DNA of 20,834 nt, from positions 1 through 20,834 of the IMG/VR virus record IMGVR_UViG_2778261058_000016, one strand, 5' to 3'. Below the pieces are notes generated by a model, which did not search any database, was not told where the DNA came from, and saw nothing but the letters and a program-made list of their open reading frames with translations. Of the stretch, positions 1 through 11,942 are shown in pieces. The translations under genes were made by a program, and so were the position numbers. Every line of letters starts with the position of its first letter. The first letter of the stretch is position 1. The stretch comes from a virus. Lineage: Duplodnaviria; Heunggongvirae; Uroviricota; Caudoviricetes.

Positions 1-1182
1 GTGCTCACAGATACTAAGTTACGAAAGTCGCTCGGAAAGCGCAGGGAGAAGGTTGAGGTTCTCTCTGATTCAAACGGACTGAATGTGCGTCTAAGCATAA
101 CCGGTTCTATCACATTCTTCTATCGGTATCGCTGGCTGGGCAAGCCTGTGCAGTTAAGCATTGGTGACTATCCAACTATTTCACTCTCTCAGGCGAGAGA
201 CAGAAGACAGCAGTTCAGAGCGTGGTTGAGCGAGGGGTATGATCCCCGGCAGAAAGTGCTGGTGGAGAAGGCTGAAAGAATAGAAGCGCTGACAGTCGAT
301 GAGGCCTATGAGTACTGGGTGAAGCATTACTGTATCCCGGAGGGGCTCATTAAAATTGATGCGAACGGTAAAAGCTTCAAAAAGCACATTAGCCCGCGGC
401 TAGGGAAGGCTATTGTGGACCAGACAGTGAAGGCGAACTGGCTTGAGGTTTTCGATGCAATGGGGAGGAGTGTCATATCAGGTGAGATGCTGTCTCTGAC
501 CAAGCGTGCTTTCCGGTTCTGCCACAACAGGGGAGTAATCAAAACCAATCCACTGGAGTCGTTACGAAAATCGGATGTCGGTATAGCAGCGAAGATGAAG
601 GAGAGGCGGCTTTCAGATAGTGAGATAAAGCAGGTGTGGGATACTCTTTTCTCTCTGCCTCCCTCTCAACAACTGGTAATCAGGTTCATGATTCTAACCG
701 GATGCCGCGCCGCAGAAATAAGAAAGTCGAGATGGGAGTGGTTCGATTTCAAAGAAAGGTCCTGGACTGTGCCGGCAGAGGATTATAAGACCGGTAAAAC
801 TATTCGTCGTGCGTTGCCGGATACTGCGGTCAGGCTTCTGCAAGAGCATCAACGCGGATCAATCACTAAGCACGTTCTGACTCCAGCACAGTTCCGGGAT
901 AAAGAAGATGTCCCACCTGGGCAGACGCTTGTCTCGACGTACTCAATGCAGGTAGTGCGTAAGAACGGAATGAAGGAGTGGTCATTACATGATTTGCGGA
1001 GAACGGTGGCCACGCGCCTGTCCGAGCTTGGCGCTCCACCACACGTTATAGAAAAGTTGCTCGGACATCAGATGGGCGGGGTTATGGCCAGATACAACCT
1101 TCATGACTATATGGACGATCAGCATGAATGGCTGGATATCTGGCAGAAGCATTTGCAGGAGATTATTGGGTATCCCCTTTAG
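1..1182 (+). CDS. int: Tyrosine recombinase / phage integrase, P4-type, with N-terminal arm-binding region; may lack 1-2 codons at the window edge
   Basis: 393-aa ORF from GTG at position 1. N-terminus LTDTKLRK...FFYRYRW resembles the arm-binding domain of P4-like integrases. C-terminus has HDLRRTVATRL (H-x-x-R) and a downstream Tyr in MARYNLHDY, consistent with the catalytic residues of tyrosine recombinases. Confidence 0.85.
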   Translation: MLTDTKLRKSLGKRREKVEVLSDSNGLNVRLSITGSITFFYRYRWLGKPVQLSIGDYPTISLSQARDRRQQFRAWLSEGYDPRQKVLVEKAERIEALTVDEAYEYWVKHYCIPEGLIKIDANGKSFKKHISPRLGKAIVDQTVKANWLEVFDAMGRSVISGEMLSLTKRAFRFCHNRGVIKTNPLESLRKSDVGIAAKMKERRLSDSEIKQVWDTLFSLPPSQQLVIRFMILTGCRAAEIRKSRWEWFDFKERSWTVPAEDYKTGKTIRRALPDTAVRLLQEHQRGSITKHVLTPAQFRDKEDVPPGQTLVSTYSMQVVRKNGMKEWSLHDLRRTVATRLSELGAPPHVIEKLLGHQMGGVMARYNLHDYMDDQHEWLDIWQKHLQEIIGYPL

Positions 1183-1378
1183 CAAAGTTGACCTTGTCTT
1201 CCCATGACTTGATTTCTGACTCACGCCAGCGCTTCGGATTTCCGGGGATGGTTGGTTTCGGGAATGGGCATGAAAAGCTGGATGGCATACGTGCGGGAGT
1301 GCTCCAGAAATAGAGCGTGCTGCGCGATATTTTGTAGCGCGCAAGGATTTCGCTTGTAACCAGGATGCTGTCATTCAT
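1163..1378 (-). CDS. AlpA-family (Phage_AlpA / MerR-like HTH) regulator or excisionase-like protein, 71 aa
   Basis: I retranslated the minus strand: MNDSILVTSEILARYKISRSTLYFWSTPARMPSSFSCPFPKPTIPGNPKRWRESEIKSWEDKVNFAKGDTQ. The pattern SRSTLY...FPKP...WRESEI..W matches AlpA/Vis-type proteins. ATG at 1378 sits 6 nt after a GGAGA Shine-Dalgarno; the ORF track's 101-aa version (to 1468) is probably an upstream over-extension. The 3' end overlaps the integrase 3' end by 20 nt (convergent). Confidence 0.65.
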   Translation of the reverse strand: MNDSILVTSEILARYKISRSTLYFWSTPARMPSSFSCPFPKPTIPGNPKRWRESEIKSWEDKVNFAKGDTQ

Positions 1379-1387
1379 CTGTGATCT

Positions 1388-1419
1388 CCAGAAAAAGAGC
1401 GCCCGGCGCGGGGCCGGGC
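1388..1419 (-). terminator. GC-rich hairpin (7-bp stem GCCCGGC / GCCGGGC, 5-nt loop) followed on the minus strand by CTCTTTTTCT; intrinsic terminator and/or the sub-terminal hairpin of the IS right end
   Basis: Perfect inverted repeat at 1401..1419 with an A-run at 1392..1396 on the plus strand, which is a T-run downstream of the hairpin on the minus strand. It lies about 85 nt past the tnpB stop and immediately before the alpA-like RBS. Confidence 0.45.
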
Positions 1420-1620
1420 AAAATGGGGGATAACTGAGCAGTGCTTTCGCACCCAATAGCCAGCTCATAACTGGCTATCAGTTGCTTGACATCCTCCCCG
1501 TCCTAAAGGAAGGGGATTCCTACAGCTAGACGGCGATGCCCCGCCGCGAGAATGTTCTTTGCGGCGTTCACGTCGCGGTCATGAGTGGTTCCGCACTCAC
1601 AACAAGTCCATTCTCTTATT
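1391..1620 (-). ncRNA. Putative omega-RNA (TnpB guide RNA) overlapping the tnpB 3' end and the IS right end
   Basis: In IS200/IS605 elements the omega-RNA is encoded across the 3' end of tnpB and the right end. This region holds three hairpins, one spanning the tnpB stop at about 1496..1515, plus those at 1456..1478 and 1401..1419. Extent is a guess and no covariance model was applied. Confidence 0.25.
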
Positions 1621-2594
1621 CGCAGGCCTGCTCTACCTTTCGGACTGTTGGCGGAGATAGCCCCGCAACACGAACAAGCTTGGGTGGAATAACTTTCGTT
1701 GACCACTTCAAACACCACTGACCGCGCAATCGCTTTATATTCCAGTTGTGTTTTGAGCATGAACCAGCCAGCGTCCAAAATGCTTTTTGCCATTTTGGTT
1801 TTAACCAGTTTCTTACTGCTCGCGTCGCCTACGAATATTGCCGCATGGCTGTTAACCAGCGCCGTGCTGTACTTGTGCAGGGCATCTTTGCGGCGGTTCT
1901 TAATTTTGGCGTGTATGGCGCGTACACGGGCTTTTTTGTTTGCACGCTGTGCCTTTCCTAATGCAGGCTCCAGATCTCGATAGAATCTACCGGCAATCAG
2001 CGGATCACCTTCTGACGGGGTGGCGTAGTCTTTCAGCCCTAAATCGATACCCACGGCGGAAGTGGCCGTTGATGGGACAGTTTCGACCTCTACGCAAACA
2101 TTGAAGTACCAGCGTCCACGGCTGTCTTCTGAAAAGCTTCCAGCACGGAATTTAAATCCTCCCAAGCCGTAGCTATCCCAGACATTAAAAATCCTGCCAG
2201 CGAACCGCACCGCGCCATTTTTCCAGACAGCGCTGCCTATTTTAAACGGCACCCAACCCAACGAACGGCGAGATCCCCCACTGACTCGCCAGCGTAAGCG
2301 AGAGCGTTTAAATTGCTTCCGTGCCTTGCCGTGAATTGCTGCGATTTCCTGTACGGTATGGCTGGGGATGGTATACCCGCGCTCTTTTCGCTCTTTAAGG
2401 AGCGGTTTCTGAACATCAAACGCCGATAGCCATTGCGGTTTTTGCGCGCCAAAAAAGCCAGCGTTGCCGTATGCTGCGCTGGTTATCTCGTTTGCCAGAT
2501 TAAAGATCTGATTGACCTCAAAGGCCATCTGCCGCAAAACGGCTGCGTGCTTGTCTTTAATTCGGACAGATAGTGTTTTGATCTGAATGTTCAT
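1503..2594 (-). CDS. tnpB: TnpB, RNA-guided endonuclease of the IS200/IS605 family (RuvC-like domain plus zinc finger)
   Basis: About 363 aa from the ATG at 2594 (MNIQIKTLSV...). RuvC-I-like GIDLGLKDY, and a C-terminal CSCCGAIS...CCECGTTHDRDVNAAKNI (CxxC...CxxC zinc finger with RuvC-III HDRD/NAAKNI). The ORF track's start at 2663 adds 23 unlikely N-terminal residues. Confidence 0.85.
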   Translation of the reverse strand: MNIQIKTLSVRIKDKHAAVLRQMAFEVNQIFNLANEITSAAYGNAGFFGAQKPQWLSAFDVQKPLLKERKERGYTIPSHTVQEIAAIHGKARKQFKRSRLRWRVSGGSRRSLGWVPFKIGSAVWKNGAVRFAGRIFNVWDSYGLGGFKFRAGSFSEDSRGRWYFNVCVEVETVPSTATSAVGIDLGLKDYATPSEGDPLIAGRFYRDLEPALGKAQRANKKARVRAIHAKIKNRRKDALHKYSTALVNSHAAIFVGDASSKKLVKTKMAKSILDAGWFMLKTQLEYKAIARSVVFEVVNESYSTQACSCCGAISANSPKGRAGLRIREWTCCECGTTHDRDVNAAKNILAAGHRRLAVGIPFL

Positions 2595-2684
2595 GGTCGT
2601 ATGTACATATAATGTGTTGATGTTCAGTTGATCGTCGTTATTTGGCGGGATGTCACCCGCCACACGGCGATGCGCTGATGCTGT

Positions 2685-2954
2685 TTACTTCCGCCAGGCG
2701 AAGCTAATTGGCTCCGGCGTAATCCACAGGTGGCGCATGTTCGCCACGTTCACCACATCATAATCCCGCGGGTAAATCTCCACGGCATCCCGATCCCCAT
2801 AGCCAACGGCTGACTTTATCTCCTGCAATGCATCCCAACTGATGCCATCCTTCCACCGGCCAGAGCTGCCAATGCTGGTGGTGTTCACCGTCAGGCGAAT
2901 AACACCGTTCTCTTCCTGAAACTCCTGAACAAGAAAGTAAGAGTTAGCCCACAC
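2685..2954 (-). CDS. Hypothetical protein, 89 aa, leftward, immediately upstream of the IS left end
   Basis: Protein-like composition (MWANSYFLVQEFQEENGVIRLTVNT...EIYPRDYDVVNVANMRHLWITPEPISFAWRK) and no conflicting gene on the other strand. The start is a GTG and the frame stays open upstream without start codons, so this may be the C-terminal remnant of a longer truncated gene. No family recognised. Confidence 0.35.
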   Translation of the reverse strand: MWANSYFLVQEFQEENGVIRLTVNTTSIGSSGRWKDGISWDALQEIKSAVGYGDRDAVEIYPRDYDVVNVANMRHLWITPEPISFAWRK

Positions 2955-3010
2955 GTTGCTCCGCTTGGGGTCGTGGCATCGTACCGGCCATTGCGATTCC
3001 GGTAACCGCG

Positions 3011-3910
3011 ATGTTCCGGGATATCGAGAAGCGATATATCGGCATCAAGCGAGCGCTGAAATCTCTGTTCGACCAGCGCCTTACCGGGCGTGAGCGCGAG
3101 GTTAACAGCCATAACTGGCACTTCCTTTGTCATGACCACGGCGCGGATATGCGCCTCTACCAGGTAAACGCCGGCAAGTTCATCTACGACATGTCGGCGC
3201 AGGAACTGGCGGACCTGCTGGAAGCGGTGCAGGCCATTCTCGACGATTACCTGCTGGATGGTGGCGAGCAAAATCTCTGGGCGATGGATTACGTCGTCGC
3301 AGAAGCGCAGCGCGGCACGCTTGAGGCATTCAATAACCTCTCGCAACAGTCGCAGGTGTATGCCAGTCAGACGACGCTGCAGCAGCTTTTAAGCAGTCCC
3401 GGTCATCTTAATCAGGTGGCAGCGGCAAGGCTGACAACGTTCAGTGACTGGAAGGTCATCAGCGATACAGCCCGCGGCGACCTGACCAACATCATCACCG
3501 ATGCGGTCGCGCGCGGGGTGAACCCTCGCGAGACGGCCAGCGTAATCAGCAAGCGCCTCGATGTGTCGATGTCGAAGGCAAAGACCATCGCTCAGACTGA
3601 GCAGGTCGGCGCACTGCGGCAGGCACAATGGAACGAAACCGACTGGGCTGCTGACCGGCTGGGGCTGAATACCGGCCTACTGTGGTTGTCAGCGCTAAAA
3701 CCAACGACGCGAACCTGGCATGCCAGCCGCCACGGCAAGGTCTACACCACCGAAGAGATTCGGGACTTCTACGCCGAGAACGGCAACCGGTACAACTGCT
3801 ACTGCAGCCAGATCCCAGTGCTGCTCAACGACGACGGCAGCATCTTCAATGAGGGGCTGGCTGAGAAACTGGCGAAAGAGAGGAAAGCTTGGAAATCCGA
3901 GTCGGAGTGA
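3011..3910 (+). CDS. Phage head morphogenesis protein (Mu F-like / SPP1 gp7 family minor head protein)
   Basis: 299 aa. The segment KAKTIAQTEQVGALRQAQWNETDW...TRTWHASRHGKVYTTEE fits the Mu F-like signature (TIA-TE ... W ... R-x-H-x-G-K). First start in frame is ATG 3011, with an in-frame stop at 2945..2947 upstream. Confidence 0.7.
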   Translation: MFRDIEKRYIGIKRALKSLFDQRLTGREREVNSHNWHFLCHDHGADMRLYQVNAGKFIYDMSAQELADLLEAVQAILDDYLLDGGEQNLWAMDYVVAEAQRGTLEAFNNLSQQSQVYASQTTLQQLLSSPGHLNQVAAARLTTFSDWKVISDTARGDLTNIITDAVARGVNPRETASVISKRLDVSMSKAKTIAQTEQVGALRQAQWNETDWAADRLGLNTGLLWLSALKPTTRTWHASRHGKVYTTEEIRDFYAENGNRYNCYCSQIPVLLNDDGSIFNEGLAEKLAKERKAWKSESE

Positions 3911-3949
3911 TATCATCATGTAAATGATAAAGTTGCTTAAGGGTGAGCA

Positions 3950-4465
3950 ATGAGCAGTGTAACTCCGGCAGAAGTCGGTTCATTCTTTTTATCTCTAGTT
4001 GTTCCAATCACCACTGGGGTTGTGGCAGCAGGATTTACTGCATTTTTCGCTCTGAATCGATTTTACAAAGAAAAATGGTGGGAGAAGAAACATGCTGCGT
4101 ACAATCAATTAATTGATAAATTATTTGAAATCAAAGCAATTTATTCCCACGCCTCAGATTTTTACGAGGCTGAATACAATGCTGGTATGTATGGTAGGCC
4201 GCCGCCGAAAGGGTCTGTTGATTGGAATACATTCCATCAAATAAAAGCGCAACTCCATCGGTTTTATGTGCTCGCACCAATCTCTCTAAGCAATAATACA
4301 AGGGATTTGCTCAATAATTTCTTCAAGCAGGACGCTGATTCCGATCATAGTGTTTACGAAGAGGGTTACCCAGATTTTGTGGCATACAATGATATGACGA
4401 TTGCGACCCAGCAACTTATTGATGCCATTGTCTTGGACGCTGAAAAAGAACTTAAATTTAAATAA
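3950..4465 (+). CDS. Membrane-anchored hypothetical protein, 171 aa (N-terminal TM helix plus soluble domain); AT-rich moron
   Basis: RBS AAGGGTGAG upstream of ATG 3950. N-terminal hydrophobic helix FFLSLVVPITTGVVAAGFTAFFAL followed by a charged/aromatic soluble region. Visibly lower GC than the flanking phage genes, and followed by its own terminator. No family recognised. Confidence 0.6.
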   Translation: MSSVTPAEVGSFFLSLVVPITTGVVAAGFTAFFALNRFYKEKWWEKKHAAYNQLIDKLFEIKAIYSHASDFYEAEYNAGMYGRPPPKGSVDWNTFHQIKAQLHRFYVLAPISLSNNTRDLLNNFFKQDADSDHSVYEEGYPDFVAYNDMTIATQQLIDAIVLDAEKELKFK

Positions 4466-4480
4466 CCTCAGAGCTCCTGA

Positions 4481-4503
4481 AGGTCGCTACGGCGGCCTTT
4501 TTT
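4481..4503 (+). terminator. Rho-independent terminator after the membrane-protein moron
   Basis: Hairpin AGGTCGC-tacg-GCGGCCT (7-bp stem including one G-U wobble) followed by TTTTTT, starting 16 nt after the TAA at 4463..4465. Confidence 0.55.
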
Positions 4504-4534
4504 ATTGCCAGATATCCAATAACGAGGACCCAGC

Positions 4535-5923
4535 ATGAAACGCAACCGCGTTAACGTGCTGACCGTCGTCAACTCCGCTTCAAACATCACCACTGAAACC
4601 ATCGACGGCAAGCCACATATCGTGGTTCGCGGCATCACGCCTGTCGTGGACGATATTGTGATGAACCGGAAGTTGTACCCGGCAGCCGAAATCGAAAAGG
4701 CCTACAACACACTCGAGCGCAACCCGATGCCGCTGGGCCATCCGAAAGTGGACGGCAAGCATGTTTCGGCGCGCGATGTCCGGGCGGTGAATGAGTATCA
4801 CGTCGGGGCATGGCTGCAGAACGTCAGCCACAAAGACGGGAAAGTGACGGGCGATATGTACGTTAACCGCCAGTACGCCGAATCCAGCGACAAGGGCAAG
4901 CGCCTGATTAACCGTCTGGATGAGATGTTGGCTGGTACCAACTCCGACCCGATCCACATCTCAACCGGTCTGCTGTATTCCGGCATCGCCGCCAATGGTG
5001 AGTCGAAGGGCAAGAAGTACAACGAGATCGCCACCAACATGATGTTTGACCATGTGGCGGTGCTGCTCGATGAGCCTGGCGCGGGTACGCCGGAGGATGG
5101 CGTGGGCATCTTCGTTAACTCTGAAGGTGATGAGCAGCAGATTGAAGTTGCCCGTCTGGCTGATGGCATCGACTGTACCCGAGACGGCCTGCTCAACAAG
5201 ACCAAATTCTTCTTCACCAATGCCTCTAATTTCTCTTTCGACGATATCTCCCGCGCTATCAGCGACAAGCTGCGCGAGGGTGACACCGAAGATAAGTGGC
5301 TTTGGTCTGAAACGGTGTGGCCGGACAGCTTCATCTACCGCAATGACACCAAATACCTGAAACAGAAGTACCTCATCGATGATGACGGCAAGGCCGTGTT
5401 CGTCGGCGAACCTGTAGAAGTCGTGCGCAAACCCACTGAGTACGAGATTAAAACCAACGGAGAGAACGATCCGATGAAAGAACTGATTATCAATGCGCTG
5501 CAAGCCGCTGGTAAGCCGACTGAAGGCAAGTCCGACGCCGAGCTGATGGACGCATACAACCAGATGAAGGCCGAAGAAGCCACCGCCAAGAAAAAAGGCG
5601 ATGAAGAAATCGACCCGGAAACCGGCAAGCCCAAGAAAAAAGAGCAGGCCGCCAATAACGAAGAGATGCCAGCGTGGGCGCAGAAACTCGCCGATCGCGT
5701 GGACGTCGTTTTCAACAGCCTGAGCGCTAACGCCGATAAAGAGAAAGGCGAAAAGCGCGCGGCTGTGAAGCTGGCGATGAACATGAGCGACGACGAAGTC
5801 GCGGATCTGGACGGTAAGGCGCTCGACGCCATGTACGCCAAGTGCCAGACATCTTTCGGCCTGAACGGTGCATTCCGCCATCAGGCAACCAACACCCAAT
5901 CAGTCAGCGAAATGCCGGAGTAA
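4535..5923 (+). CDS. Putative prohead scaffolding/protease-like protein (DUF2213-like N-terminal domain, charged C-terminal tail)
   Basis: 462 aa with GAGGA RBS 6 nt upstream. N-terminal pattern HIVVRGITPVVDDIVMNRKLYPAAEI...PLGHPKVDGKHVSA recalls the DUF2213 phage family. C-terminus is highly charged (KKKGDEEIDPETGKPKKKEQ), typical of scaffold proteins. Sits between the head morphogenesis and decoration/capsid genes. Confidence 0.5.
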   Translation: MKRNRVNVLTVVNSASNITTETIDGKPHIVVRGITPVVDDIVMNRKLYPAAEIEKAYNTLERNPMPLGHPKVDGKHVSARDVRAVNEYHVGAWLQNVSHKDGKVTGDMYVNRQYAESSDKGKRLINRLDEMLAGTNSDPIHISTGLLYSGIAANGESKGKKYNEIATNMMFDHVAVLLDEPGAGTPEDGVGIFVNSEGDEQQIEVARLADGIDCTRDGLLNKTKFFFTNASNFSFDDISRAISDKLREGDTEDKWLWSETVWPDSFIYRNDTKYLKQKYLIDDDGKAVFVGEPVEVVRKPTEYEIKTNGENDPMKELIINALQAAGKPTEGKSDAELMDAYNQMKAEEATAKKKGDEEIDPETGKPKKKEQAANNEEMPAWAQKLADRVDVVFNSLSANADKEKGEKRAAVKLAMNMSDDEVADLDGKALDAMYAKCQTSFGLNGAFRHQATNTQSVSEMPE

Positions 5924-5926
5924 AAA

Positions 5927-6361
5927 ATGGCTAAAGACGGAAAGCATATTATCCACGCCGGCGGCGTGTTCCCTAATCCGCTGCTTAACCGCGAAGGCGG
6001 GGCGGCTGCATCGACTCTGCCTGGTACTGTTGGCTTCTTCAGTACTGCTGACAAGTTCACGGCCTCTGTGGTCGGGGCAGAATCCGCCATCAAGTATGTG
6101 GCAAACAAAGACTACCTGCGCTGCCTGAGTGTTGATGACGCAATCCCAGCCAATGAATTGGTTGTTGGTATTCATCCGCTGCCTGGCATGTTCCTAAATG
6201 TGCGAGCAGCAGCGGGCACTTACACCAAAGGCCAGCCGGTTGCAGTAGCCAACGGTCAGATCACTGCGGTTGTAGATGATGTCGCCGTATTCGCTTATGT
6301 CGAAGAAGATAAAGCAGTCACTGCGGTGGCGGGCGATCTGATTCGCGTTGTGTTCAAATAA
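5927..6361 (+). CDS. Head decoration / capsid cement-like protein
   Basis: 144 aa, Gly/Ala/Val-rich, immediately upstream of the major capsid gene. Size and position parallel lambda gpD-type or DUF2190-type decoration proteins. Starts 4 nt after the upstream stop. Confidence 0.5.
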   Translation: MAKDGKHIIHAGGVFPNPLLNREGGAAASTLPGTVGFFSTADKFTASVVGAESAIKYVANKDYLRCLSVDDAIPANELVVGIHPLPGMFLNVRAAAGTYTKGQPVAVANGQITAVVDDVAVFAYVEEDKAVTAVAGDLIRVVFK

Positions 6362-6371
6362 GGAGCACTGA

Positions 6372-7469
6372 ATGTTTGTATTCTCCAAGTCTATCGGCGA
6401 GAAGACCGGTAACCTCGCGGTAAACCAGGCGCAATGGCGCGCTCTCGAACTTGAGCGAAACGCCAGTGCTCAGGCAGCAGCTGATTTTCTGGCGCGCACT
6501 CAGTTCCGTGGTGATGCAGAAAACGCCCCTTATCTCGACGCGGTGAACGCAGTTGACGATATCCGCCGCCTGTATCGCGCTTTCGACACAACTGTGCTTC
6601 AGCAGTTCGAGCCAAATACCGAATTCACCCTGCTGAACGATCTGATGCCGCTCTCTCGCTCCGTGCGAATTGAGCAGTCTCGTTACGATTACGCTCGTAC
6701 CGGCGGCCGCGGCTGGGCTCATACTTCCATGTCCGGTCAGGTTGGTGCGGCGCTGGATGCTCGCAGCTATTCCTTCGATGGCACCATGGTACCTATTCAC
6801 GACTCGGGCTTTAAGTTCGAATGGCGTGATCCAATCTTCAACAGCCCACAGGCATTGCAGTCGCAGGCTGATGCGCAGCGTGGTTCGGTTGAAGACGTTC
6901 AGCGTCGTTACGTTGACTACATCTTCAACGGCTTCCGCGACAAAGCTGGCAACTTCGCAGTGTTTGACGGTCTGACCTGGAAAGGGTTGCGTGACGATGA
7001 GCGCGTAGCGCAGATCGACCTTGGCGCTTCAGGCCTGAACATCGATTTTACCTCTGGCACAGCAACGTCTCAGGACATCCGCGCCGGGGCAATCGTGCTT
7101 CGTGATCAGATGCGTCGCGTAAACAACCAGTATGCAGAGCAGACCTGGTATGTATCCGGCGAAATCATCTCCAACCTGGAACGCTACTTCTCCGACAACT
7201 TCCAGTCCGGAACGATCATGGATGAAATCCTGAAGCTGACCGGTGTAGCGGCGATTAAAGAAGACAGCCAACTGTCAGGTAACGAAATCGTCATCGTTCC
7301 ACTGAGTGCAGGTGTCATTGCTCCAATCGTCGGCCAGGCTATCGGTACCGTTGCATCTCCGCGTCCTGAGTACAACAGCGACTACATCTGGCGCACCTGG
7401 GGTGCAATGGGGTTGATGGTCAAGCAGGACATCAACAACAAATACTCCGTAATTCACGCATCAAGCTAA
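6372..7469 (+). CDS. Major capsid protein
   Basis: 365 aa, preceded by AAGGAG RBS, in the canonical position after the scaffold and decoration genes and before the head-tail joining genes. Assignment is by synteny and size rather than a recognised motif. Confidence 0.6.
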   Translation: MFVFSKSIGEKTGNLAVNQAQWRALELERNASAQAAADFLARTQFRGDAENAPYLDAVNAVDDIRRLYRAFDTTVLQQFEPNTEFTLLNDLMPLSRSVRIEQSRYDYARTGGRGWAHTSMSGQVGAALDARSYSFDGTMVPIHDSGFKFEWRDPIFNSPQALQSQADAQRGSVEDVQRRYVDYIFNGFRDKAGNFAVFDGLTWKGLRDDERVAQIDLGASGLNIDFTSGTATSQDIRAGAIVLRDQMRRVNNQYAEQTWYVSGEIISNLERYFSDNFQSGTIMDEILKLTGVAAIKEDSQLSGNEIVIVPLSAGVIAPIVGQAIGTVASPRPEYNSDYIWRTWGAMGLMVKQDINNKYSVIHASS

Positions 7470-7478
7470 GGATAAATC

Positions 7479-7844
7479 ATGGCACTGGTAGAAATCGTGG
7501 CAAGTAACCTGCACGCCGGTGCCAATCTCCGCAAACTGGAGGTTGGTTCGGTGGTGGATGTTGACGACGCAACGGCTGAGCGCTGGATCAGCGCTGGCAA
7601 GGCGAAGCAAACCGACAAGAAGAAAGGCGAGAAGCTTACCTTCGAAGTGGCAACTCCGTCCGCGCAGGCGGCAGACCTTTCTGGCCTGCAAAAGCAACTC
7701 GCCGACGCGCTGGAGCAGAACCAAAAGCTAATCGCCGATGGTGAAGCAAAAGACAAGGCTCACGCCGACGCACTGGCAGCAGAAACAAAACGCGCTGACG
7801 AAGCCGAAGCGGCATTGGCGGAAGCAACCAAGAAGGCGAAATAA
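7479..7844 (+). CDS. Hypothetical head-associated protein with Ala/Lys/Glu-rich coiled-coil C-terminus
   Basis: 121 aa, RBS AAGGA upstream. C-terminal half LQKQLADALEQNQKLIADGEAKDKAHADALAAETKRADEAEAALAEATKKAK is strongly helical and charged. Confidence 0.5.
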   Translation: MALVEIVASNLHAGANLRKLEVGSVVDVDDATAERWISAGKAKQTDKKKGEKLTFEVATPSAQAADLSGLQKQLADALEQNQKLIADGEAKDKAHADALAAETKRADEAEAALAEATKKAK

Positions 7845-7846
7845 CC

Positions 7847-8227
7847 ATGGCTGACCCAATCACAGCGGCAGACGTGCAGGCGTACCTCGGTGAATTGGGT
7901 TACACCATTCCCATGGCGTTGCTGGATCCAATTCTCTGCGCGGTCAACAAAATTATCCCGTGCCTCGATGGTGCGGGGTATGACGAGTGCACTGCAAAGC
8001 TGATTCTGATGTACGCCGCCGCGCTTATGGCTACGTCGTCTGGTGCGCGCCGCATCAAATCACAGGGTGCGCCGTCTGGCGCGTCCCGCTCGTTTGAATA
8101 TGGTGACGACAGCATTACCTGGCTGCGCGACTCGTTGGCTCGTCTCGATACCAGCGGATGCACCGGTGAGTTACCGATCAGCGCTGGTAATAGTGTCGGC
8201 CTGTTCATGGTGGTCGGGGGCTGCTGA
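7847..8227 (+). CDS. Head-tail connector / DNA packaging (gp6-like) candidate
   Basis: 126 aa, starts 3 nt after the upstream stop, in the block of small genes between capsid and tail genes. Assigned by synteny. Confidence 0.45.
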   Translation: MADPITAADVQAYLGELGYTIPMALLDPILCAVNKIIPCLDGAGYDECTAKLILMYAAALMATSSGARRIKSQGAPSGASRSFEYGDDSITWLRDSLARLDTSGCTGELPISAGNSVGLFMVVGGC

Positions 8228-8400
8228 TGACGTACAAATCAGTTAAGCACGGCCTGCCGCGCTCATTCACCCGCGTCTGGGTGATGACCGACACAGGGCG
8301 GGAGACAACCGGTTACGTTAAGTCGGACGGCGAGTGGTTCATCAACTGCCCGCGCATCCGGGCGACTGGCGCCGCTGTGCTGCGATGGAGGGATGACTGA
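8227..8400 (+). CDS. Small hypothetical protein, 57 aa, translationally coupled at both ends
   Basis: Not in the ORF track (under 60 aa). Manual translation gives MTYKSVKHGLPRSFTRVWVMTDTGRETTGYVKSDGEWFINCPRIRATGAAVLRWRDD. Its ATG overlaps the upstream stop (TGATG at 8225..8229) and its stop overlaps the next ATG (TGATG at 8398..8402). Confidence 0.4.
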   Translation: MTYKSVKHGLPRSFTRVWVMTDTGRETTGYVKSDGEWFINCPRIRATGAAVLRWRDD

Positions 8401-8747
8401 TGTCGTCAACCGCTAATTGGTCATACACCGCGACGGCGACAATCTGGCGCAATCTCGGTAACGATGAATACGGTGACTCGCTCGGCTTCTCTGCCCCTGA
8501 GTCGATTCTCTGTGATTACGAAGGTGGCCTGTCAAAGCGCATCGGCAATATCGGATCTGAAATCGTCGTGAAGAATACCGTTTGGACTGAGTATGCACTG
8601 GCAGCGGCGGGTGATTACCTGCTGATTGGCCAGTCAACCGAATCCGATCCGGTTGTCGCCGGAGCAGACGAGGTGCGGCAGGTTATCCGCTACGCCGACA
8701 TGTTCGAGCGCCTAGTGGATGATTACGCCATCCTGACGGGGGTGTAG
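8400..8747 (+). CDS. Head-tail joining / head closure protein candidate (lambda FII-like position)
   Basis: 115 aa, translationally coupled to neighbours. Size and position match head-tail adaptor proteins. Confidence 0.45.
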   Translation: MSSTANWSYTATATIWRNLGNDEYGDSLGFSAPESILCDYEGGLSKRIGNIGSEIVVKNTVWTEYALAAAGDYLLIGQSTESDPVVAGADEVRQVIRYADMFERLVDDYAILTGV

Positions 8748-8749
8748 CC

Positions 8750-9214
8750 ATGGGCATCAAAGTGAAGGGCGTTAGCCAGGCGAAAAAGCACCTGAACGAT
8801 GTCATCAACGACGTGAAGTGGCGCAAGGTGATTCGCGCGCTGCAGTCGGCGATGATTCTCATCGGGGCACGGGCAGCCTATTACACCCCGATCGACACCT
8901 CTACGCTGATTAACAGCCAGTTTCGCGAAATTGACGCTGGCGGCGTGTTCATCACCGGGCGCATCGGTTACTCAGCAAACTATGCCGCGTACGTTCATGA
9001 GGCGTCAGGCAAGCTGAAAGGTCAGCCGCGCGCGCACTTTGGTATAACCAGCAACCGATCTGAGTTCGGTCCGCAGAAACCGAAAGAGTTCGGCGGCGGC
9101 ACCGGAAAGGGCAACTACTGGGATCCGCACGGTGAACCGCAATTCCTGACCAAAGGCGCGAATGATGAGCGCGATAACGTTGATGCGGTGATGCGCAAGG
9201 AGCTTTCGCTATGA
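8750..9214 (+). CDS. Tail completion protein candidate (HK97 gp10-like / lambda Z-like position)
   Basis: 154 aa. N-terminus MGIKVKGVSQAKKHLNDVINDVKWRKVIRALQSA resembles the start of HK97 gp10-family proteins. Overlaps the next gene by ATGA. Confidence 0.45.
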   Translation: MGIKVKGVSQAKKHLNDVINDVKWRKVIRALQSAMILIGARAAYYTPIDTSTLINSQFREIDAGGVFITGRIGYSANYAAYVHEASGKLKGQPRAHFGITSNRSEFGPQKPKEFGGGTGKGNYWDPHGEPQFLTKGANDERDNVDAVMRKELSL

Positions 9215-9594
9215 CACCCATGATGCACGAGCGGGTGCGCAACATGTTCGGCGACGCCGGGCTAACTACCGGTTTCACGGTGCAGCAGCTGATGTACGAC
9301 GACCCGGGAGACCTGTCGAAGGCGATCATGGTGTTCAGGCCTAACGGCGGATCGTATATTCGGACTGACCTCGGCTCTGAGTATCACGTCCTGGTCGACG
9401 TCGTAGGCGCAAAAGATAAGCGCAAAGACGCACTCAATGCCGTACAGCGCATCGTCGATTACGTCCAGGCCAACCCCATGGCTGACGAGTGCGTCGGCTA
9501 CATCCAGAACATGGGCGCAATTCCCGCGCCGGTGCTCACAGAAGAAGGGCGAATAGTCTTCAGACTCCAGTTCGCCTGCACTTACGGCGAATAG
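9211..9594 (+). CDS. Tail terminator candidate (lambda U-like position)
   Basis: 127 aa, last gene before the major tail protein, followed by a terminator hairpin. Confidence 0.45.
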   Translation: MTPMMHERVRNMFGDAGLTTGFTVQQLMYDDPGDLSKAIMVFRPNGGSYIRTDLGSEYHVLVDVVGAKDKRKDALNAVQRIVDYVQANPMADECVGYIQNMGAIPAPVLTEEGRIVFRLQFACTYGE

Positions 9595-9609
9595 CCATCC
9601 CAACCAAAT

Positions 9610-9635
9610 AACCCGCTTCGGCGGGTTTTCTTTTT
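9610..9635 (+). terminator. Rho-independent terminator (CCCGC-ttcg-GCGGG hairpin plus T-run)
   Basis: AACCCGCTTCGGCGGGTTTTCTTTTT directly after the stop at 9594. The same 20-mer core recurs at 11961..11980. Confidence 0.6.
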
Positions 9636-9657
9636 ATACGTCAAAGAGGAGTTTCAA

Positions 9658-10401
9658 ATGGCTAATTGCCAGAACTCGAACGAACGCCTGTTCGGCGGTG
9701 CGGTCGTGCTGGAAGTCGCCGATGGCTGCCCGGATGTCAAACCACTCGAATCTGAGTGGAAGGCGCTGGCTGCTGGTACGTCGAAAGGCTTCGACTTCAA
9801 CCCTAACTCGGTTACCTCTGATGCGGATGACGGCGGCGGCTATGTCGAGACCATCATCACCAACAGTGACTTCACCCTGAGCTTTGAAGGTGAAGTGCGC
9901 AAGAAGGACAAACTGGACCAGTACGGTGTCGGCAAGTTCATCAAGTATTTCGCTGATGAGCTGAAGGCTAAGCGCCAGCCAGGTATCTGGGTGCGCATGG
10001 ACTACGGTCCGATTGAATTCATCGGCTACATGAACATTAACGCGTTGAGTTCTGACGGTGGCACTAACGATATCGTCACGTTCTCTACTGAGTTCAAGGT
10101 CGGTGACGCGAGCACTATCGAAGTGAACGAAATCACTGCGGTAGCAGTGACTGGTGTGACGGTAACCCCGACTACCAGCACTGGCGCGGCTGGCGGTACC
10201 AGCACCTTCACGGTGAATATCGCACCAACCGGCGCAACAAATACTGGCTTCACCGTCGCTTCAACCGATCCCACCAAAGCCACTGCCACGGCATCAGGTA
10301 CTACCGTCACGGTTAACCGTGTGGCGACCGGCAGCGCGCAGATCATCATCAACACCGAAGACGGCAACTTTGTGGCCGTGCATACGGTAACAGTTACTTA
10401 A
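9658..10401 (+). CDS. Major tail protein with C-terminal Ig-like (Big_2-type) domain, lambda gpV-like
   Basis: 247 aa, strong RBS AGAGGAG. C-terminal about 90 aa (ITAVAVTGVTVTPTTSTGAAGGTSTFTVNIAPTGATNTGFTVASTDPTKATATASGTTVTVNRVATGSAQIIINTEDGNFVAVHTVTVT) has the alternating Thr/Val beta-sandwich pattern of bacterial Ig-like domains, as in lambda gpV. Confidence 0.7.
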   Translation: MANCQNSNERLFGGAVVLEVADGCPDVKPLESEWKALAAGTSKGFDFNPNSVTSDADDGGGYVETIITNSDFTLSFEGEVRKKDKLDQYGVGKFIKYFADELKAKRQPGIWVRMDYGPIEFIGYMNINALSSDGGTNDIVTFSTEFKVGDASTIEVNEITAVAVTGVTVTPTTSTGAAGGTSTFTVNIAPTGATNTGFTVASTDPTKATATASGTTVTVNRVATGSAQIIINTEDGNFVAVHTVTVT

Positions 10402-10458
10402 CGGACATTCCAAAGGGTGGCGTGCCGCCCTTGATAATGACCGTTTACTGGAAGGCCT

Positions 10459-11130
10459 ATGACCGCTTTAACAGATATTGGCGAACTCTCTATCAGCGAC
10501 AGCCGCGAAGGCGGGAAAGATTACCTGTTACGGCCGTCATTCGAGGCTATGGCGAGAATCGGCACTCCGGAAGAGATTGTGCAGGCGTATGCCACCATCC
10601 ACGGGAATGATGTCGCTCAACTCATTGAGGTGTGCACCGGCGGGCTGGGCCGCTTTCCTGAATGGCTATCACCTTCATTCAACCGCGCCGCTGAGAAGCT
10701 GTTATCAACGTGCATGCTTGTGCTGCAGGCGTGTTGTGATGATGACCTGACGCCAATGATTGGCGAATGGAAAGGGTGGCGACATTGTGTCGTCTACCGC
10801 CCGGGCCAGATGCCGAAGAACGACATCATCGTACTGGCGCAGCACCTCATGCAGCACGGGGTCGTAGGTAAAGCCAAAGTTCGACAGTTGCAGCGTCACG
10901 AGACTGACGAGCGCACTACCGAGTTTAAAGCCTTCGACTACATCAGCGCGGCACGAAGTCACTTCGGCATGAATCGCGCCGAAGCTTCGCAGCTAACGAT
11001 GACCGAATTTCAGATGCTGCTGGCCACGAAATACCCGGACCAGAAAGGTTTCACTCGCGAAGAGTACGACAGCATCGCCGACGAATACCTGGCTAAACAG
11101 GCCGCGCGCAGGGCACAAGTTAGTAGTTAA
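10459..11130 (+). CDS. Tail assembly chaperone candidate (G/GT-like position)
   Basis: 223 aa, RBS GGAAGG upstream, located between major tail and tape measure genes. I found no slippery heptamer or extended -1 frame, so a canonical G/GT frameshift product is not evident. Confidence 0.4.
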   Translation: MTALTDIGELSISDSREGGKDYLLRPSFEAMARIGTPEEIVQAYATIHGNDVAQLIEVCTGGLGRFPEWLSPSFNRAAEKLLSTCMLVLQACCDDDLTPMIGEWKGWRHCVVYRPGQMPKNDIIVLAQHLMQHGVVGKAKVRQLQRHETDERTTEFKAFDYISAARSHFGMNRAEASQLTMTEFQMLLATKYPDQKGFTREEYDSIADEYLAKQAARRAQVSS

Positions 11131-11309: not shown

Positions 11310-11942
11310 ATGGAAAGACAGTACGCAGTACTTCTTGACGCAGGGTTCTTGCGCCGAAAATTAGGTACTCAGGCAGCACCAATGACAGCTCAAAATGTCG
11401 AAGATTTAGTTAATAAAATTAAAGCACGAGCTGAGTTATTAGGGATGCGGTTGTATCGTGTGTTTTATTACGACGCTGAGCCTTTCACGGGTACTAAGAC
11501 ACATCCTATATCCAACGCTGTTATTAACTTTGGCGCTACACAAATGGCCATTGATTGTAATACATTGTTAGATGAGCTTAAGGTCAAGCCTTTTTTTGCT
11601 GTGCGCCTAGGGGAACTCAATTTTAGAGGGTGGAAGGTTTCTGATGCTGCTCTTCAGTCAGGTGCAGGAGGGACGGCAACAATTAATGCTCATAATGTTT
11701 CTCCCAATCTTCAGCAGAAAGGTGTGGATATGAGGATCGCATTAGATATCTCATCTATGACTTTAAAAAACCAAGCAGACGTTTTTTGCTTGGTAACAGG
11801 TGACTCAGATTTTGCACCCATCATCAAATTTGCGAGATCTGAAGGAAAGCAAGTATTCACTTATACTCTCGGTCATAGAGTCAAACCATCTTTGCCTATT
11901 CATTCTGACCTCCATATCCCTGAAACGTACGCTAATTTGTAA
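11310..11942 (+). CDS. NYN-domain (PIN-like, LabA/YacP-type) putative ribonuclease, 210 aa; AT-rich moron
   Basis: N-terminal first-strand motif YAVLLDAGFL (acidic residue in the first beta strand), central KGVDMRIALDI, and CLVTGDSDFAPIIKFARSEGKQVF (GDSDF), matching conserved acidic motifs of NYN/PIN-like nucleases. Visibly much lower GC than the flanking chaperone and tape-measure genes, with its own promoter-like element and a downstream terminator. Confidence 0.75.
   Translation: MERQYAVLLDAGFLRRKLGTQAAPMTAQNVEDLVNKIKARAELLGMRLYRVFYYDAEPFTGTKTHPISNAVINFGATQMAIDCNTLLDELKVKPFFAVRLGELNFRGWKVSDAALQSGAGGTATINAHNVSPNLQQKGVDMRIALDISSMTLKNQADVFCLVTGDSDFAPIIKFARSEGKQVFTYTLGHRVKPSLPIHSDLHIPETYANL

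What the first reader, a model, noticed from the sequence alone, without database searches (positions are those of the whole stretch)
3911..4505. Second AT-rich moron: membrane-anchored 171-aa protein with its own terminator, inserted in the head module
The gene at 3950..4465 is visibly AT-rich against GC-rich flanks, encodes a single N-terminal transmembrane helix followed by a soluble domain, has a good RBS, and is followed by an intrinsic terminator (4481..4503). Morons in prophage head operons commonly encode superinfection-exclusion, abortive-infection or lysogenic-conversion factors. I recognise no family for this protein, so it may be an undescribed membrane-associated exclusion or defence factor.
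Basis: partly seen in the sequence, partly recalled or inferred. Interest (0 to 1): 0.55.

Follow-up and report, generated by a model that had tools for sequence, protein, structure and literature searches.

The report
Membrane-anchored cargo gene in prophage head operon
A small AT-rich gene for a membrane-anchored helical-bundle protein of unknown function sits in a swappable slot of a defective prophage's head operon; it belongs to a large uncharacterised family and is a reasonable but untested candidate for a factor that excludes other phages.

Summary
ORF 3950..4465 (171 aa) has 39.9% GC against 58%/55% in its neighbours. It encodes one N-terminal transmembrane helix plus a confidently modelled four-helix bundle, and a hairpin with a T-run follows at 4479..4503.

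It is a moron. It lies between the MuF minor head gene and the DUF2213 gene. An Erwinia phage has this slot empty. In 75 prophages with a near-identical DUF2213 gene the slot holds at least 37 different contents, including the Lit exclusion protease. This family is the commonest cargo (15 of 75).

One correction: the terminator is not private to this gene. Different cargoes share it, so it is part of the slot's right border.

The protein matches no Pfam, PADLOC, NCBIfam or PDB entry, only PHROG 17948 (unknown function). It belongs to a family of about 1,250 clusters with an invariant RFYxEKWWEKK collar and a small-residue stripe on the transmembrane helix.

The gene stays intact in decayed prophage remnants, which suggests it benefits the host. 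The best reading is a prophage-expressed inner-membrane phage-exclusion or abortive-infection factor, at about 0.5 confidence. The function was not tested.

The parts
3011..3910 (+). Left flank: MuF-type minor head protein gene (299 aa). Its last ~15-35 nt form the left recombination border of the cargo slot.
   Evidence: Pfam Phage_Mu_F, E 1.1e-11. RefSeq names it 'phage minor head protein'. Homology to prophages with other cargo ends at 3874-3895.
3889..3916 (+). Promoter-like site: -35 TTGGAA (3889-3894), 16-nt spacer, -10 TATCAT (3911-3916). The TG of an extended -10 is supplied by the MuF stop codon TGA (3908-3910).
   Evidence: Consensus scan, 9 of 12 matches. The count is not above the shuffle expectation (1 found, 1.6 expected). 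A TGnTAnnAT-like element is kept at the same distance in most family-bearing cassettes, although the surrounding sequence diverges. Function not shown.
3939..3947 (+). Shine-Dalgarno-like AAGGGTGAG, upstream of the ATG
   Evidence: Read from the sequence.
3950..4465 (+). Cargo (moron) gene: 171-aa single-pass membrane protein with a four-helix bundle (PHROG 17948 family).
3983..4054 (+). Codons 12-35: the only transmembrane helix. Conserved small residues (P19, G23, A26, A27, T30, A31, A34) lie on one face.
   Evidence: Hydropathy. Periodic conservation, helical moment P about 0.007-0.011.
4055..4099 (+). Codons 36-50: juxtamembrane collar NRFYKEKWWEKKHAA. It holds the family's invariant EKWWE(K) signature.
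   Evidence: Invariant columns Y39, E41, K42, W43, W44, E45 in A1. W44 is invariant and E41/W43 are at least 90% conserved in 83 distant members. This region has the lowest entropy in the protein.
4479..4505 (+). Intrinsic-terminator-like hairpin GAAGGTCGC-TACG-GCGGCCTTT plus a T-run. It is the conserved right border of the slot.
   Evidence: It is shared by loci carrying Lit, the TM-zinc-ribbon ORF, and the 215-, 243- and 237-aa cargoes. An alternative stem ACCCGC/GCGGGT occurs in 3 sequences. Homology to other-cargo prophages resumes at 4480-4485. It is absent from the empty slot of Erwinia phage 49.
4535..5923 (+). Right flank: DUF2213 (XkdF-like) head gene, with its GAGGA ribosome-binding site at 4524-4528.
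   Evidence: Pfam DUF2213; RefSeq naming; alignment A5.

Best explanation
The gene is a horizontally exchanged cargo cassette (a moron) in a hypervariable slot between the MuF minor head gene and the DUF2213 head gene. The host phage belongs to a lineage of temperate enterobacterial siphophages; here the prophage is defective.

The product is predicted to be a single-pass inner-membrane protein. A short N-terminus faces the periplasm and a four-helix bundle of about 135 residues lies in the cytoplasm.

The conserved parts are one small-residue face of the membrane helix, the EKWWEKK collar, the APISLS loop and the C-terminal DAxxELKF. All lie at or near the membrane. The membrane-distal tip of the bundle is hypervariable.

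I infer the following. The protein is made from its own weak promoter in the lysogen. It associates through its membrane helix with copies of itself or with another membrane protein. It then protects the lysogen against other phages in one of two ways: it blocks genome entry at the cytoplasmic face of the inner membrane, or it perturbs the membrane once the variable tip senses a phage component (abortive infection).

Shown: the gene, its foreign composition, its cassette behaviour, the predicted topology and fold, the family and its conservation pattern.

Inferred: expression from the prophage, oligomerisation, and any anti-phage activity.
For: **Cassette behaviour**
- The slot is empty in Erwinia phage vB_EhrS_49, with a 26-nt gap.
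- Among 75 IMG/VR prophages whose DUF2213 is at least 92% identical, there are at least 37 slot contents. This family occupies 15.
- E. coli siblings carry Lit (PADLOC E 7.5e-42), Rap1a, a TM-zinc-ribbon ORF and other cargoes in the slot.
- The homology breakpoints are sharp: 3874-3895 and 4480-4485.
- 61 of 68 viral contigs with the family have it in this slot. Cargo identity ranges from 37% to 100% while the flanks stay at 83-100%.

**Not tied to head assembly**
- The same family lies next to xis/int in phages CobraSix and OS31.
- It lies directly after N in a Pantoea lambdoid prophage.
- It lies between Mor and the endolysin in Mu-like prophages.

**Benefit to the host**
- The ORF is intact in a Gibbsiella remnant where DUF2213 is frameshifted after 43 codons.
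- It is intact in a Salmonella remnant that keeps only 35 nt of MuF, the gene and the hairpin.
- It is intact in the defective prophages of this window and of E. coli A14.
- dN is far below dS.

**Membrane topology and fold**
-. In 76 of 77 family members the C-terminal flank has more K+R than the N-terminal flank.
- Conservation is concentrated in the membrane-proximal parts and is periodic along the membrane helix.

**Defence-type neighbours in some distant loci**
- An OLD-family nuclease operon, a type III restriction-modification system, HerA and GajA.

**Precedents**
- Tab is a defence moron inside a late operon (PMC10884400).
- P22 SieA and HK97 gp15 are small inner-membrane injection blockers (PMC10883804).
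Against: - There is no homology to any known defence or exclusion protein: PADLOC, Pfam and NCBIfam give nothing, and lambda SieB gives hhalign probability 0.1%.
- Fold searches return only generic four-helix bundles.
- The slot is not a pure defence hotspot. It also holds HNH/AP2-type endonucleases, a Rap1a immunity protein and many unknowns.
- Some distant homologs sit among metabolic genes.
- No conserved partner gene exists to hint at a pathway.
- The promoter match is no better than chance by count.
- No experiment was possible.
Confidence: 0.5

Rival explanations
1. It is a membrane protein that serves the phage during lytic growth. Examples would be a regulator of holin or lysis timing, or a late-expressed block to re-infection of the already infected cell (in the manner of T4 Imm/Sp). 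It would be read mainly as part of the late operon.
For: The gene is co-oriented with the head operon and sits only 40 nt after MuF. In two Vreelandella Mu-like prophages the family gene lies immediately upstream of an M15 endolysin and a 3-TM holin. A single N-terminal TM followed by a helical domain resembles antiholins and i-spanins in outline.
Against: The gene is kept intact in remnants that have lost all lytic functions and in defective prophages lacking portal and terminase. The slot is empty or differently filled in close relatives, so the gene is not needed for lysis. The positive-inside rule puts the bundle in the cytoplasm, the opposite of an i-spanin or of T4 RI, and there is no embedded o-spanin ORF. 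Klebsiella relatives have separate lysis cassettes with their own spanin-type genes.
Confidence: 0.13
2. It is a lysogenic-conversion or immunity factor unrelated to phages. Examples would be protection of the lysogen against a membrane-targeting bacteriocin or contact-dependent/T6SS effector, or a modulator of a host membrane process.
For: A Rap1a/Tai-family immunity protein occupies the same slot in other prophages. From my own knowledge, class IIa bacteriocin immunity proteins are cytoplasmic four-helix bundles that act at a membrane transporter. The family is widespread outside phages, in several phyla and sometimes in non-defence neighbourhoods.
Against: No cognate toxin gene is linked in any context examined. 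No sequence or specific fold match to known immunity families was found. Phage-specific positions (after N, beside xis/int, the slot shared with Lit) fit anti-phage cargo better.
Confidence: 0.17
3. It is a virion structural or head-assembly accessory protein of this phage lineage.
For: It is located between two head genes.
Against: Composition is foreign. It is absent or replaced in most close relatives, and the slot is empty in Erwinia phage 49. It is membrane-anchored. It matches no structural family. It occurs in early regions of other phages.
Confidence: 0.02
4. It is selfish or neutral cargo with no selected function in the lysogen, carried along by recombination at the slot borders.
For: The slot also carries homing-type HNH endonucleases and many short ORFs.
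Against: Purifying selection is strong (dN 0.19-0.42 with dS saturated). Motifs are invariant across about 1,250 clusters in several phyla. ORFs stay intact in decayed remnants.
Confidence: 0.05

Closest known systems
[quoted passage not shown]
   Same: Each is a small protein (SieA 162-164 aa) encoded by a temperate phage and located in the inner membrane. gp15 is a moron inside a morphogenesis operon. [quoted passage not shown] Here too, alleles as low as 37% identical sit in near-identical backbones.
   Different: No sequence relationship was detected. SieA has three predicted TM segments; this protein has one TM plus a cytoplasmic four-helix bundle. No injection-block phenotype has been tested. 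This family also extends far beyond phages of one host group.
Lit (Peptidase_U49) abortive-infection protease of prophage e14
   Same: It occupies exactly the same MuF|DUF2213 slot, followed by the same terminator hairpin, in sibling prophages of E. coli M10 and others.
   Different: Lit is a 284-aa zinc metalloprotease. The window protein has no protease motif, no Pfam or PADLOC match, and a different fold.
Tab of Pseudomonas phage JBD26 (a defence moron inside the late operon)
   Same: It is a small protein of no known family, encoded between essential late genes, and it protects the lysogen (PMC10884400).
   Different: Tab is an 83-residue protein that blocks tail assembly of invaders. No homology was found, and the window protein is membrane-anchored.
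Lambda/P22 SieB
   Same: The Pantoea homolog sits directly downstream of N, the map position of sieB in lambda. SieB is also a membrane protein of 170-190 aa.
   Different: The profile comparison is negative (hhalign probability 0.1%). By reading the translated sequence, SieB appears to have two hydrophobic segments and a different C-terminal domain.
Four-helix-bundle ligand-binding domains of chemoreceptors and sensor kinases (Tar/Tsr, McpN, NarX/NarQ)
   Different: Those domains are periplasmic and lead into a second TM and a signalling module. This protein ends after the bundle, the bundle is predicted to be cytoplasmic, identity is 4-14%, and the scores are typical of generic helical bundles.
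Cargo and defence hotspots of P2/P4-type phages and satellites (Rousset et al. 2022, cited in PMC10884400)
   Same: A fixed position in a conserved phage backbone holds many alternative accessory genes.
   Different: The phage lineage and position differ (inside the head operon). The slot is bounded by a conserved terminator, and the content is mixed and mostly of unknown function.

Membership tests
Moron (in the sense of Juhala/Hendrix) | An extra gene present in some, but not all, closely related phages at the same map position | tested here: met
   The slot is empty in Erwinia phage 49. There are at least 37 alternative contents among 75 near-identical backbones.
Moron (in the sense of Juhala/Hendrix) | Nucleotide composition differs from the flanking genes | tested here: met
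   GC is 39.9% against 58.3% and 55.4%. GC3 is 36.6% against 74% and 72%.
Moron (in the sense of Juhala/Hendrix) | Flanked by its own promoter and terminator | tested here: inconclusive
   The terminator hairpin is real and conserved, but it is shared by all cargo types. The promoter-like site scores 9 of 12 and is not above chance by count. An extended -10-like element recurs across cassettes.
Moron (in the sense of Juhala/Hendrix) | Expressed from the repressed prophage | not testable with these tools
   Needs RNA-seq or 5' RACE of a lysogen.
PHROG 17948 (unknown function) | Significant full-length match to the family profile | tested here: met
   E 3.4e-30, residues 11-170 against profile positions 5-167 of 185.
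SieB (lambda/P22) | Sequence or profile similarity to SieB | tested here: not met
   No Pfam hit at E up to 10. hhalign of A1 against lambda SieB gives probability 0.1%.
Lit / Peptidase_U49 | Peptidase_U49 domain | tested here: not met
   No Pfam or PADLOC hit for the window protein. The sibling-slot Lit does hit.
Known anti-phage defence proteins (PADLOC-DB 2.0) | Match to any defence-protein model | tested here: not met
   0 families at E up to 10. One homolog has a weak hit (E 0.006), confined to its N-terminal residues 8-55.
i-spanin (Rz-type) | N-in/C-out topology, a linked or embedded o-spanin lipoprotein gene, and a position in the lysis cassette | tested here: not met
   The positive-inside rule gives N-out/C-in. 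There is no embedded ORF in the other frames. The gene lies in the head operon.
Immunity gene of a MuF polymorphic toxin | The upstream MuF protein carries a C-terminal toxin extension | tested here: not met
   MuF is 299 aa, with the Mu_F domain at 159-267 and no further Pfam domain. Its gene aligns with siblings up to the last 15-35 nt, and its length is 296-337 aa whatever the cargo.
4HB_MCP / sensor four-helix-bundle domains | Sequence-family membership, and a periplasmic location between two TM helices | tested here: not met
Inner-membrane injection blockers (SieA / gp15 type), functional class | Blocks DNA entry of superinfecting phage without affecting adsorption | not testable with these tools
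   Requires phage challenge, K+ efflux and DNA-entry assays.

The most novel reading that the evidence does not exclude
The 171-aa protein is the founding example of a widespread family (about 1,250 clusters at 50% identity, several bacterial phyla) that acts as a single-protein membrane immune device. A glycine-zipper-like transmembrane helix would assemble into an oligomer and be held closed by the invariant EKWWEKK collar. A hypervariable cytoplasmic four-helix-bundle tip would recognise a phage component and trigger membrane permeabilisation or block genome entry. In addition, the MuF|DUF2213 slot, bounded by its conserved terminator, would be a previously undescribed hotspot for finding further prophage-borne defence genes.
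Probability: 0.22. Interest if true: 0.7.

Novelty: new variant of a known kind. Interest (0 to 1): 0.5.

Why it matters
If the protein excludes phages, it adds a new and very compact single-gene membrane defence family. Its conservation pattern is easy to probe by mutation: the small-residue stripe, the EKWWEKK collar and the variable tip.

Independently of its function, the slot between the MuF and DUF2213 genes holds dozens of alternative, mostly uncharacterised cargo genes in near-identical phage backbones. Lit is one of them. That makes it a natural, ready-made library for discovering prophage accessory functions in Enterobacterales.

The shared terminator shows how such cassettes are packaged and swapped inside an essential operon.

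Tried and rejected
**Searches that gave nothing specific**
- Pfam, PADLOC and NCBIfam on the protein: nothing.
- Pfam on 83 distant members: no consistent family.
- PDB by sequence profile: 0 hits.
- The AlphaFold database library was unavailable.

**Hypotheses tested and rejected**
- SieB relationship: rejected by hhalign.
- Spanin or antiholin reading: rejected on topology, the lack of an embedded ORF, and retention in remnants without lysis genes.
- MuF-toxin immunity: rejected because MuF has no toxin extension.

**Context searches**
- Search for a conserved partner gene across 25 genomic loci: none found.
- Neighbour scans showed mobile-element genes and a few defence genes (type III restriction-modification, GajA, HerA). 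The sample is too small for an enrichment statistic.
- The search for related loci with the very diverse alignment A2 failed for lack of a conserved stretch. A1 was used instead.

**Literature**
- Searches by PHROG id, RefSeq accessions and topic found no description of this family.
- The accessions do not appear in the DefensePredictor supplements.

**Other**
- A homology search for an alternative 247-aa cargo of the slot also returned only hypothetical proteins.
- The formal covariation count on the hairpin is weak because the alternative-stem sequences are misaligned by one column. The argument rests on reading the alignment.

Full report
**1. The observation**

The window carries an ORF from ATG 3950 to a stop at 4463-4465, encoding 171 aa. 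Its GC content is 39.9% and its GC3 is 36.6%. The upstream gene (3011-3910) has 58.3% and 74.3%. The downstream gene (4535-5923) has 55.4% and 71.7%. Only 3.3% of all 516-nt windows are this AT-rich, and they fall in three islands: this gene, 11.1-12.1 kb and 19.4-20.8 kb.

A Shine-Dalgarno-like AAGGGTGAG lies at 3939-3947. A 9-bp hairpin at 4479-4500 runs into a T-tract and folds at -15.8 kcal/mol. A sigma-70-like site lies at 3889-3916: TTGGAA, 16 nt, TATCAT, with an upstream TG supplied by the MuF stop codon. By count it is no better than shuffled sequence.

The ORF is a real gene. It has 64 close homolog clusters of 166-188 aa. Non-synonymous divergence is 0.19-0.42 where synonymous sites are saturated.

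**2. The flanks and the state of the prophage**

The left neighbour is a MuF-type minor head protein. The right neighbour is a DUF2213 (XkdF-like) head protein. A DUF6260 major capsid protein, tail genes and a tailspike follow.

Homology to intact sibling prophages starts abruptly at about 3001. To the left lie an integrase, an IS605-type TnpB and a DUF7694 gene. Portal and terminase are missing, so the element is defective. E. coli A14 has a similar ~24-kb defective element between yciA and yciB, with an identical copy of the gene.

**3. The gene is cargo in a hypervariable slot**

*E. coli genomes.* Only 26 of 5,426 complete E. coli genomes match the probed region (2900-5600) at all. Their slot between MuF and DUF2213 holds one of the following:
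- this family (A14, LR-28, MB20);
- Lit/Peptidase_U49 (PADLOC E 7.5e-42);
- a 215-aa protein plus a Rap1a immunity protein;
- proteins of 127+60, 243 or 237 aa;
- a 67-aa minus-strand ORF;
- an unannotated 146-aa TM-zinc-ribbon ORF.

*Isolated relatives.* The slot is empty in Erwinia phage vB_EhrS_49, where 26 nt separate the two genes. It carries other small genes in Klebsiella phages.

*IMG/VR prophages.* I examined 75 prophages whose DUF2213 is at least 92% identical to the window's. The slot has at least 37 distinct contents. This family is the commonest, in 15 loci as four divergent alleles, one of them truncated. Conversely, 61 of 68 viral contigs that encode a family member have it in this slot. 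The cargo is 37-100% identical there, while MuF and DUF2213 stay at 83-100%.

*Breakpoints.* They are sharp: 3874-3895 on the left, inside the last codons of MuF, and 4480-4485 on the right.

**4. The terminator belongs to the slot**

An alignment of the right junction from 15 loci shows the hairpin AAGGTCGC-nnnn-GCGGCCTT, the T-run and the GAGGA ribosome-binding site of DUF2213. All are conserved behind five unrelated cargoes as well as behind this family. Three sequences carry an alternative stem, ACCCGC/GCGGGT, that still pairs. The formal pair count is only modest because of a one-column misalignment.

The empty Erwinia slot lacks the hairpin.

On the left, the -35-like TTGGAA lies in the conserved MuF 3' end. 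A TGnTAnnAT-like element recurs about 35-45 nt upstream of the start codon in most family-bearing cassettes. This is suggestive of a promoter but not proof.

**5. The protein**

*Topology.* Hydropathy gives a single membrane helix, around residues 12-35, and nothing else. There are no K or R residues before it and five in the 15 residues after it. In 76 of 77 family members the C-terminal flank is the more positive. This predicts an N-out/C-in orientation with the soluble domain in the cytoplasm. The topology is an inference from the positive-inside rule.

*Sequence searches.* Pfam, PADLOC, NCBIfam and PDB searches are empty. PHROG 17948 (unknown function) matches at 3e-30.

**6. The family**

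An exhaustive profile search finds 1,251 representative clusters at E of 1e-3 or better (222 at 1e-10 or better). Nearly all are 150-200 aa. Members occur in Enterobacterales and also in Desulfobacterota, Planctomycetota, Omnitrophota, Fermentibacteria and others.

The signature is RFYxEKWWEKK immediately after the membrane helix. W44 is invariant, and E41, W43, A164 and L168 are at least 90% conserved in 83 diverse members.

Conservation is highest in four places: the collar (36-50), the membrane helix, the loop 109-114 (APISLS) and the C-terminal 161-171. In the model all four lie at the membrane-proximal end of the bundle. The distal loops are the most variable.

Within the membrane helix, conservation is periodic (helical moment P about 0.007-0.011). 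It marks a stripe of small residues at positions 19, 23, 27, 30 and 34. A single-pass protein has no intramolecular partner for that face. I therefore infer contact with another membrane helix, either its own copies or a host or phage membrane protein.

**7. Context outside the slot**

The family also lies in these positions:
- beside xis/int in Enterobacter phage CobraSix and Serratia phage OS31;
- directly after N in a Pantoea lambdoid prophage, which is the map position of sieB in lambda;
- between Mor and an M15 endolysin with a 3-TM holin in two Vreelandella Mu-like prophages.

Two decayed remnants keep the ORF intact:
- In Gibbsiella, the gene and hairpin are followed by a DUF2213 stub that is frameshifted after 43 codons. 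The remnant lies next to an OLD-family nuclease operon.
- In Salmonella strain s1, only 35 nt of MuF, the gene and the hairpin remain, near minC.

No partner gene is conserved across the 25 genomic loci. Neighbours are often transposases, integrases and phage genes. A few loci have a type III restriction-modification system, HerA or GajA within three genes. Others have ordinary metabolic neighbours.

**8. Interpretation**

Moron status is secure. The most likely function is protection of the lysogen against other phages at the inner membrane. The supporting points are:
- the shared slot with Lit;
- phage accessory positions elsewhere;
- retention in remnants and defective prophages;
- allele diversity decoupled from the backbone;
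- precedents of small prophage membrane proteins that block DNA entry (SieA, HK97 gp15; PMC10883804) and of defence morons inside late operons (Tab; PMC10884400).

The evidence does not decide between an injection block and abortive infection through membrane perturbation. The conserved membrane-proximal core with a variable distal tip fits a sensor-effector design slightly better. Overall confidence in an anti-phage role is about 0.5.

The rivals are:
- a lytic-cycle membrane function, weakened by retention in remnants and by the predicted topology;
- immunity to a non-phage membrane toxin, given Rap1a in the same slot but no linked toxin;
- a structural role, effectively excluded;
- neutral cargo, contradicted by strong purifying selection.

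**9. Novelty**

I found no description of this family in the libraries or papers searched. As a kind of thing, a moron-encoded membrane protein and a cargo hotspot in a temperate phage are both known. The protein family, its architecture and this particular slot with its shared terminator appear undescribed.

Noticed in passing
window 11310-11942 (+): There is a second AT-rich island (GC about 41-44%) between the DUF6246 gene and the tape-measure gene (12000-14930). It encodes a 210-aa protein with a NYN (PIN-like nuclease) domain, Pfam E 1.3e-12. E. coli A14 has a NYN-domain gene at the same position. This is probably another moron and a better-defined defence or RNase candidate.
   Followed up: partly
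window 1-3000: The left 3 kb hold a tyrosine integrase (1-1182), an IS605-type TnpB (1503-2663, minus strand) and a DUF7694 gene (2685-2954, minus strand). Homology to intact sibling prophages begins only at about 3001. Portal and terminase are missing, so the prophage is defective. E. coli A14 shows a related truncation with a partial portal gene.
   Followed up: partly
window 19400-20834: The distal part of the tailspike gene (18798 to the end; Tail_spike_N plus beta-helix) drops to 38-41% GC. This suggests a swapped receptor-binding module.
   Followed up: no
L003 2308-2748 (E. coli O22:H8 strain 154, NZ_CP067426.1); also L164: RefSeq leaves a 540-bp gap in the same slot unannotated. The gap contains a 146-aa ORF with apparent hydrophobic (membrane) segments and a CxxC...CxxC zinc-ribbon motif. 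Hits H7-H10 show the same two-piece match with nothing annotated in the slot, but only H7 was inspected.
   Followed up: partly
L124-L203 (IMG/VR loci), slot upstream of position 3501: The MuF|DUF2213 slot has at least 37 distinct contents in 75 near-identical backbones. They include HNH/AP2-type endonucleases (201-230 aa), a 118-aa ORF on the opposite strand (a Rap1a-family protein occupies this position in E. coli XJ55; this one was not scanned), a 245-247-aa family with only hypothetical relatives, and many 50-160-aa unknowns.
   Followed up: partly
L034 (MAG, Geopsychrobacteraceae, OY762430.1) 1247-10821: A distant family member sits in an odd array. Four copies of a 510-aa ORF alternate with single unrelated genes of 380, 157 (the family member) and 253 aa; a 202-aa gene follows the last copy. 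The copies are probably the four neighbours that matched DDE transposase families (DDE_Tnp_1_6/DUF772) in the pooled Pfam scan.
   Followed up: no
L012/L013 (Pantoea piersonii) 1-1085 and 6001-6522: In this lambdoid prophage, a 29%-identical family member follows N directly. The locus also has a 961-aa SEFIR/TIR-NACHT-type protein upstream of the immunity region, and ParE-like and GamL genes downstream.
   Followed up: no
L001/L055 (E. coli A14) record 2102877-2103962: RefSeq names the truncated DUF1073/Phage_portal_3 gene 'anti-CBASS protein Acb1 family protein'. In intact relatives the same gene is the portal (Pfam PF06381). The product name may mislead defence or anti-defence surveys.
   Followed up: no
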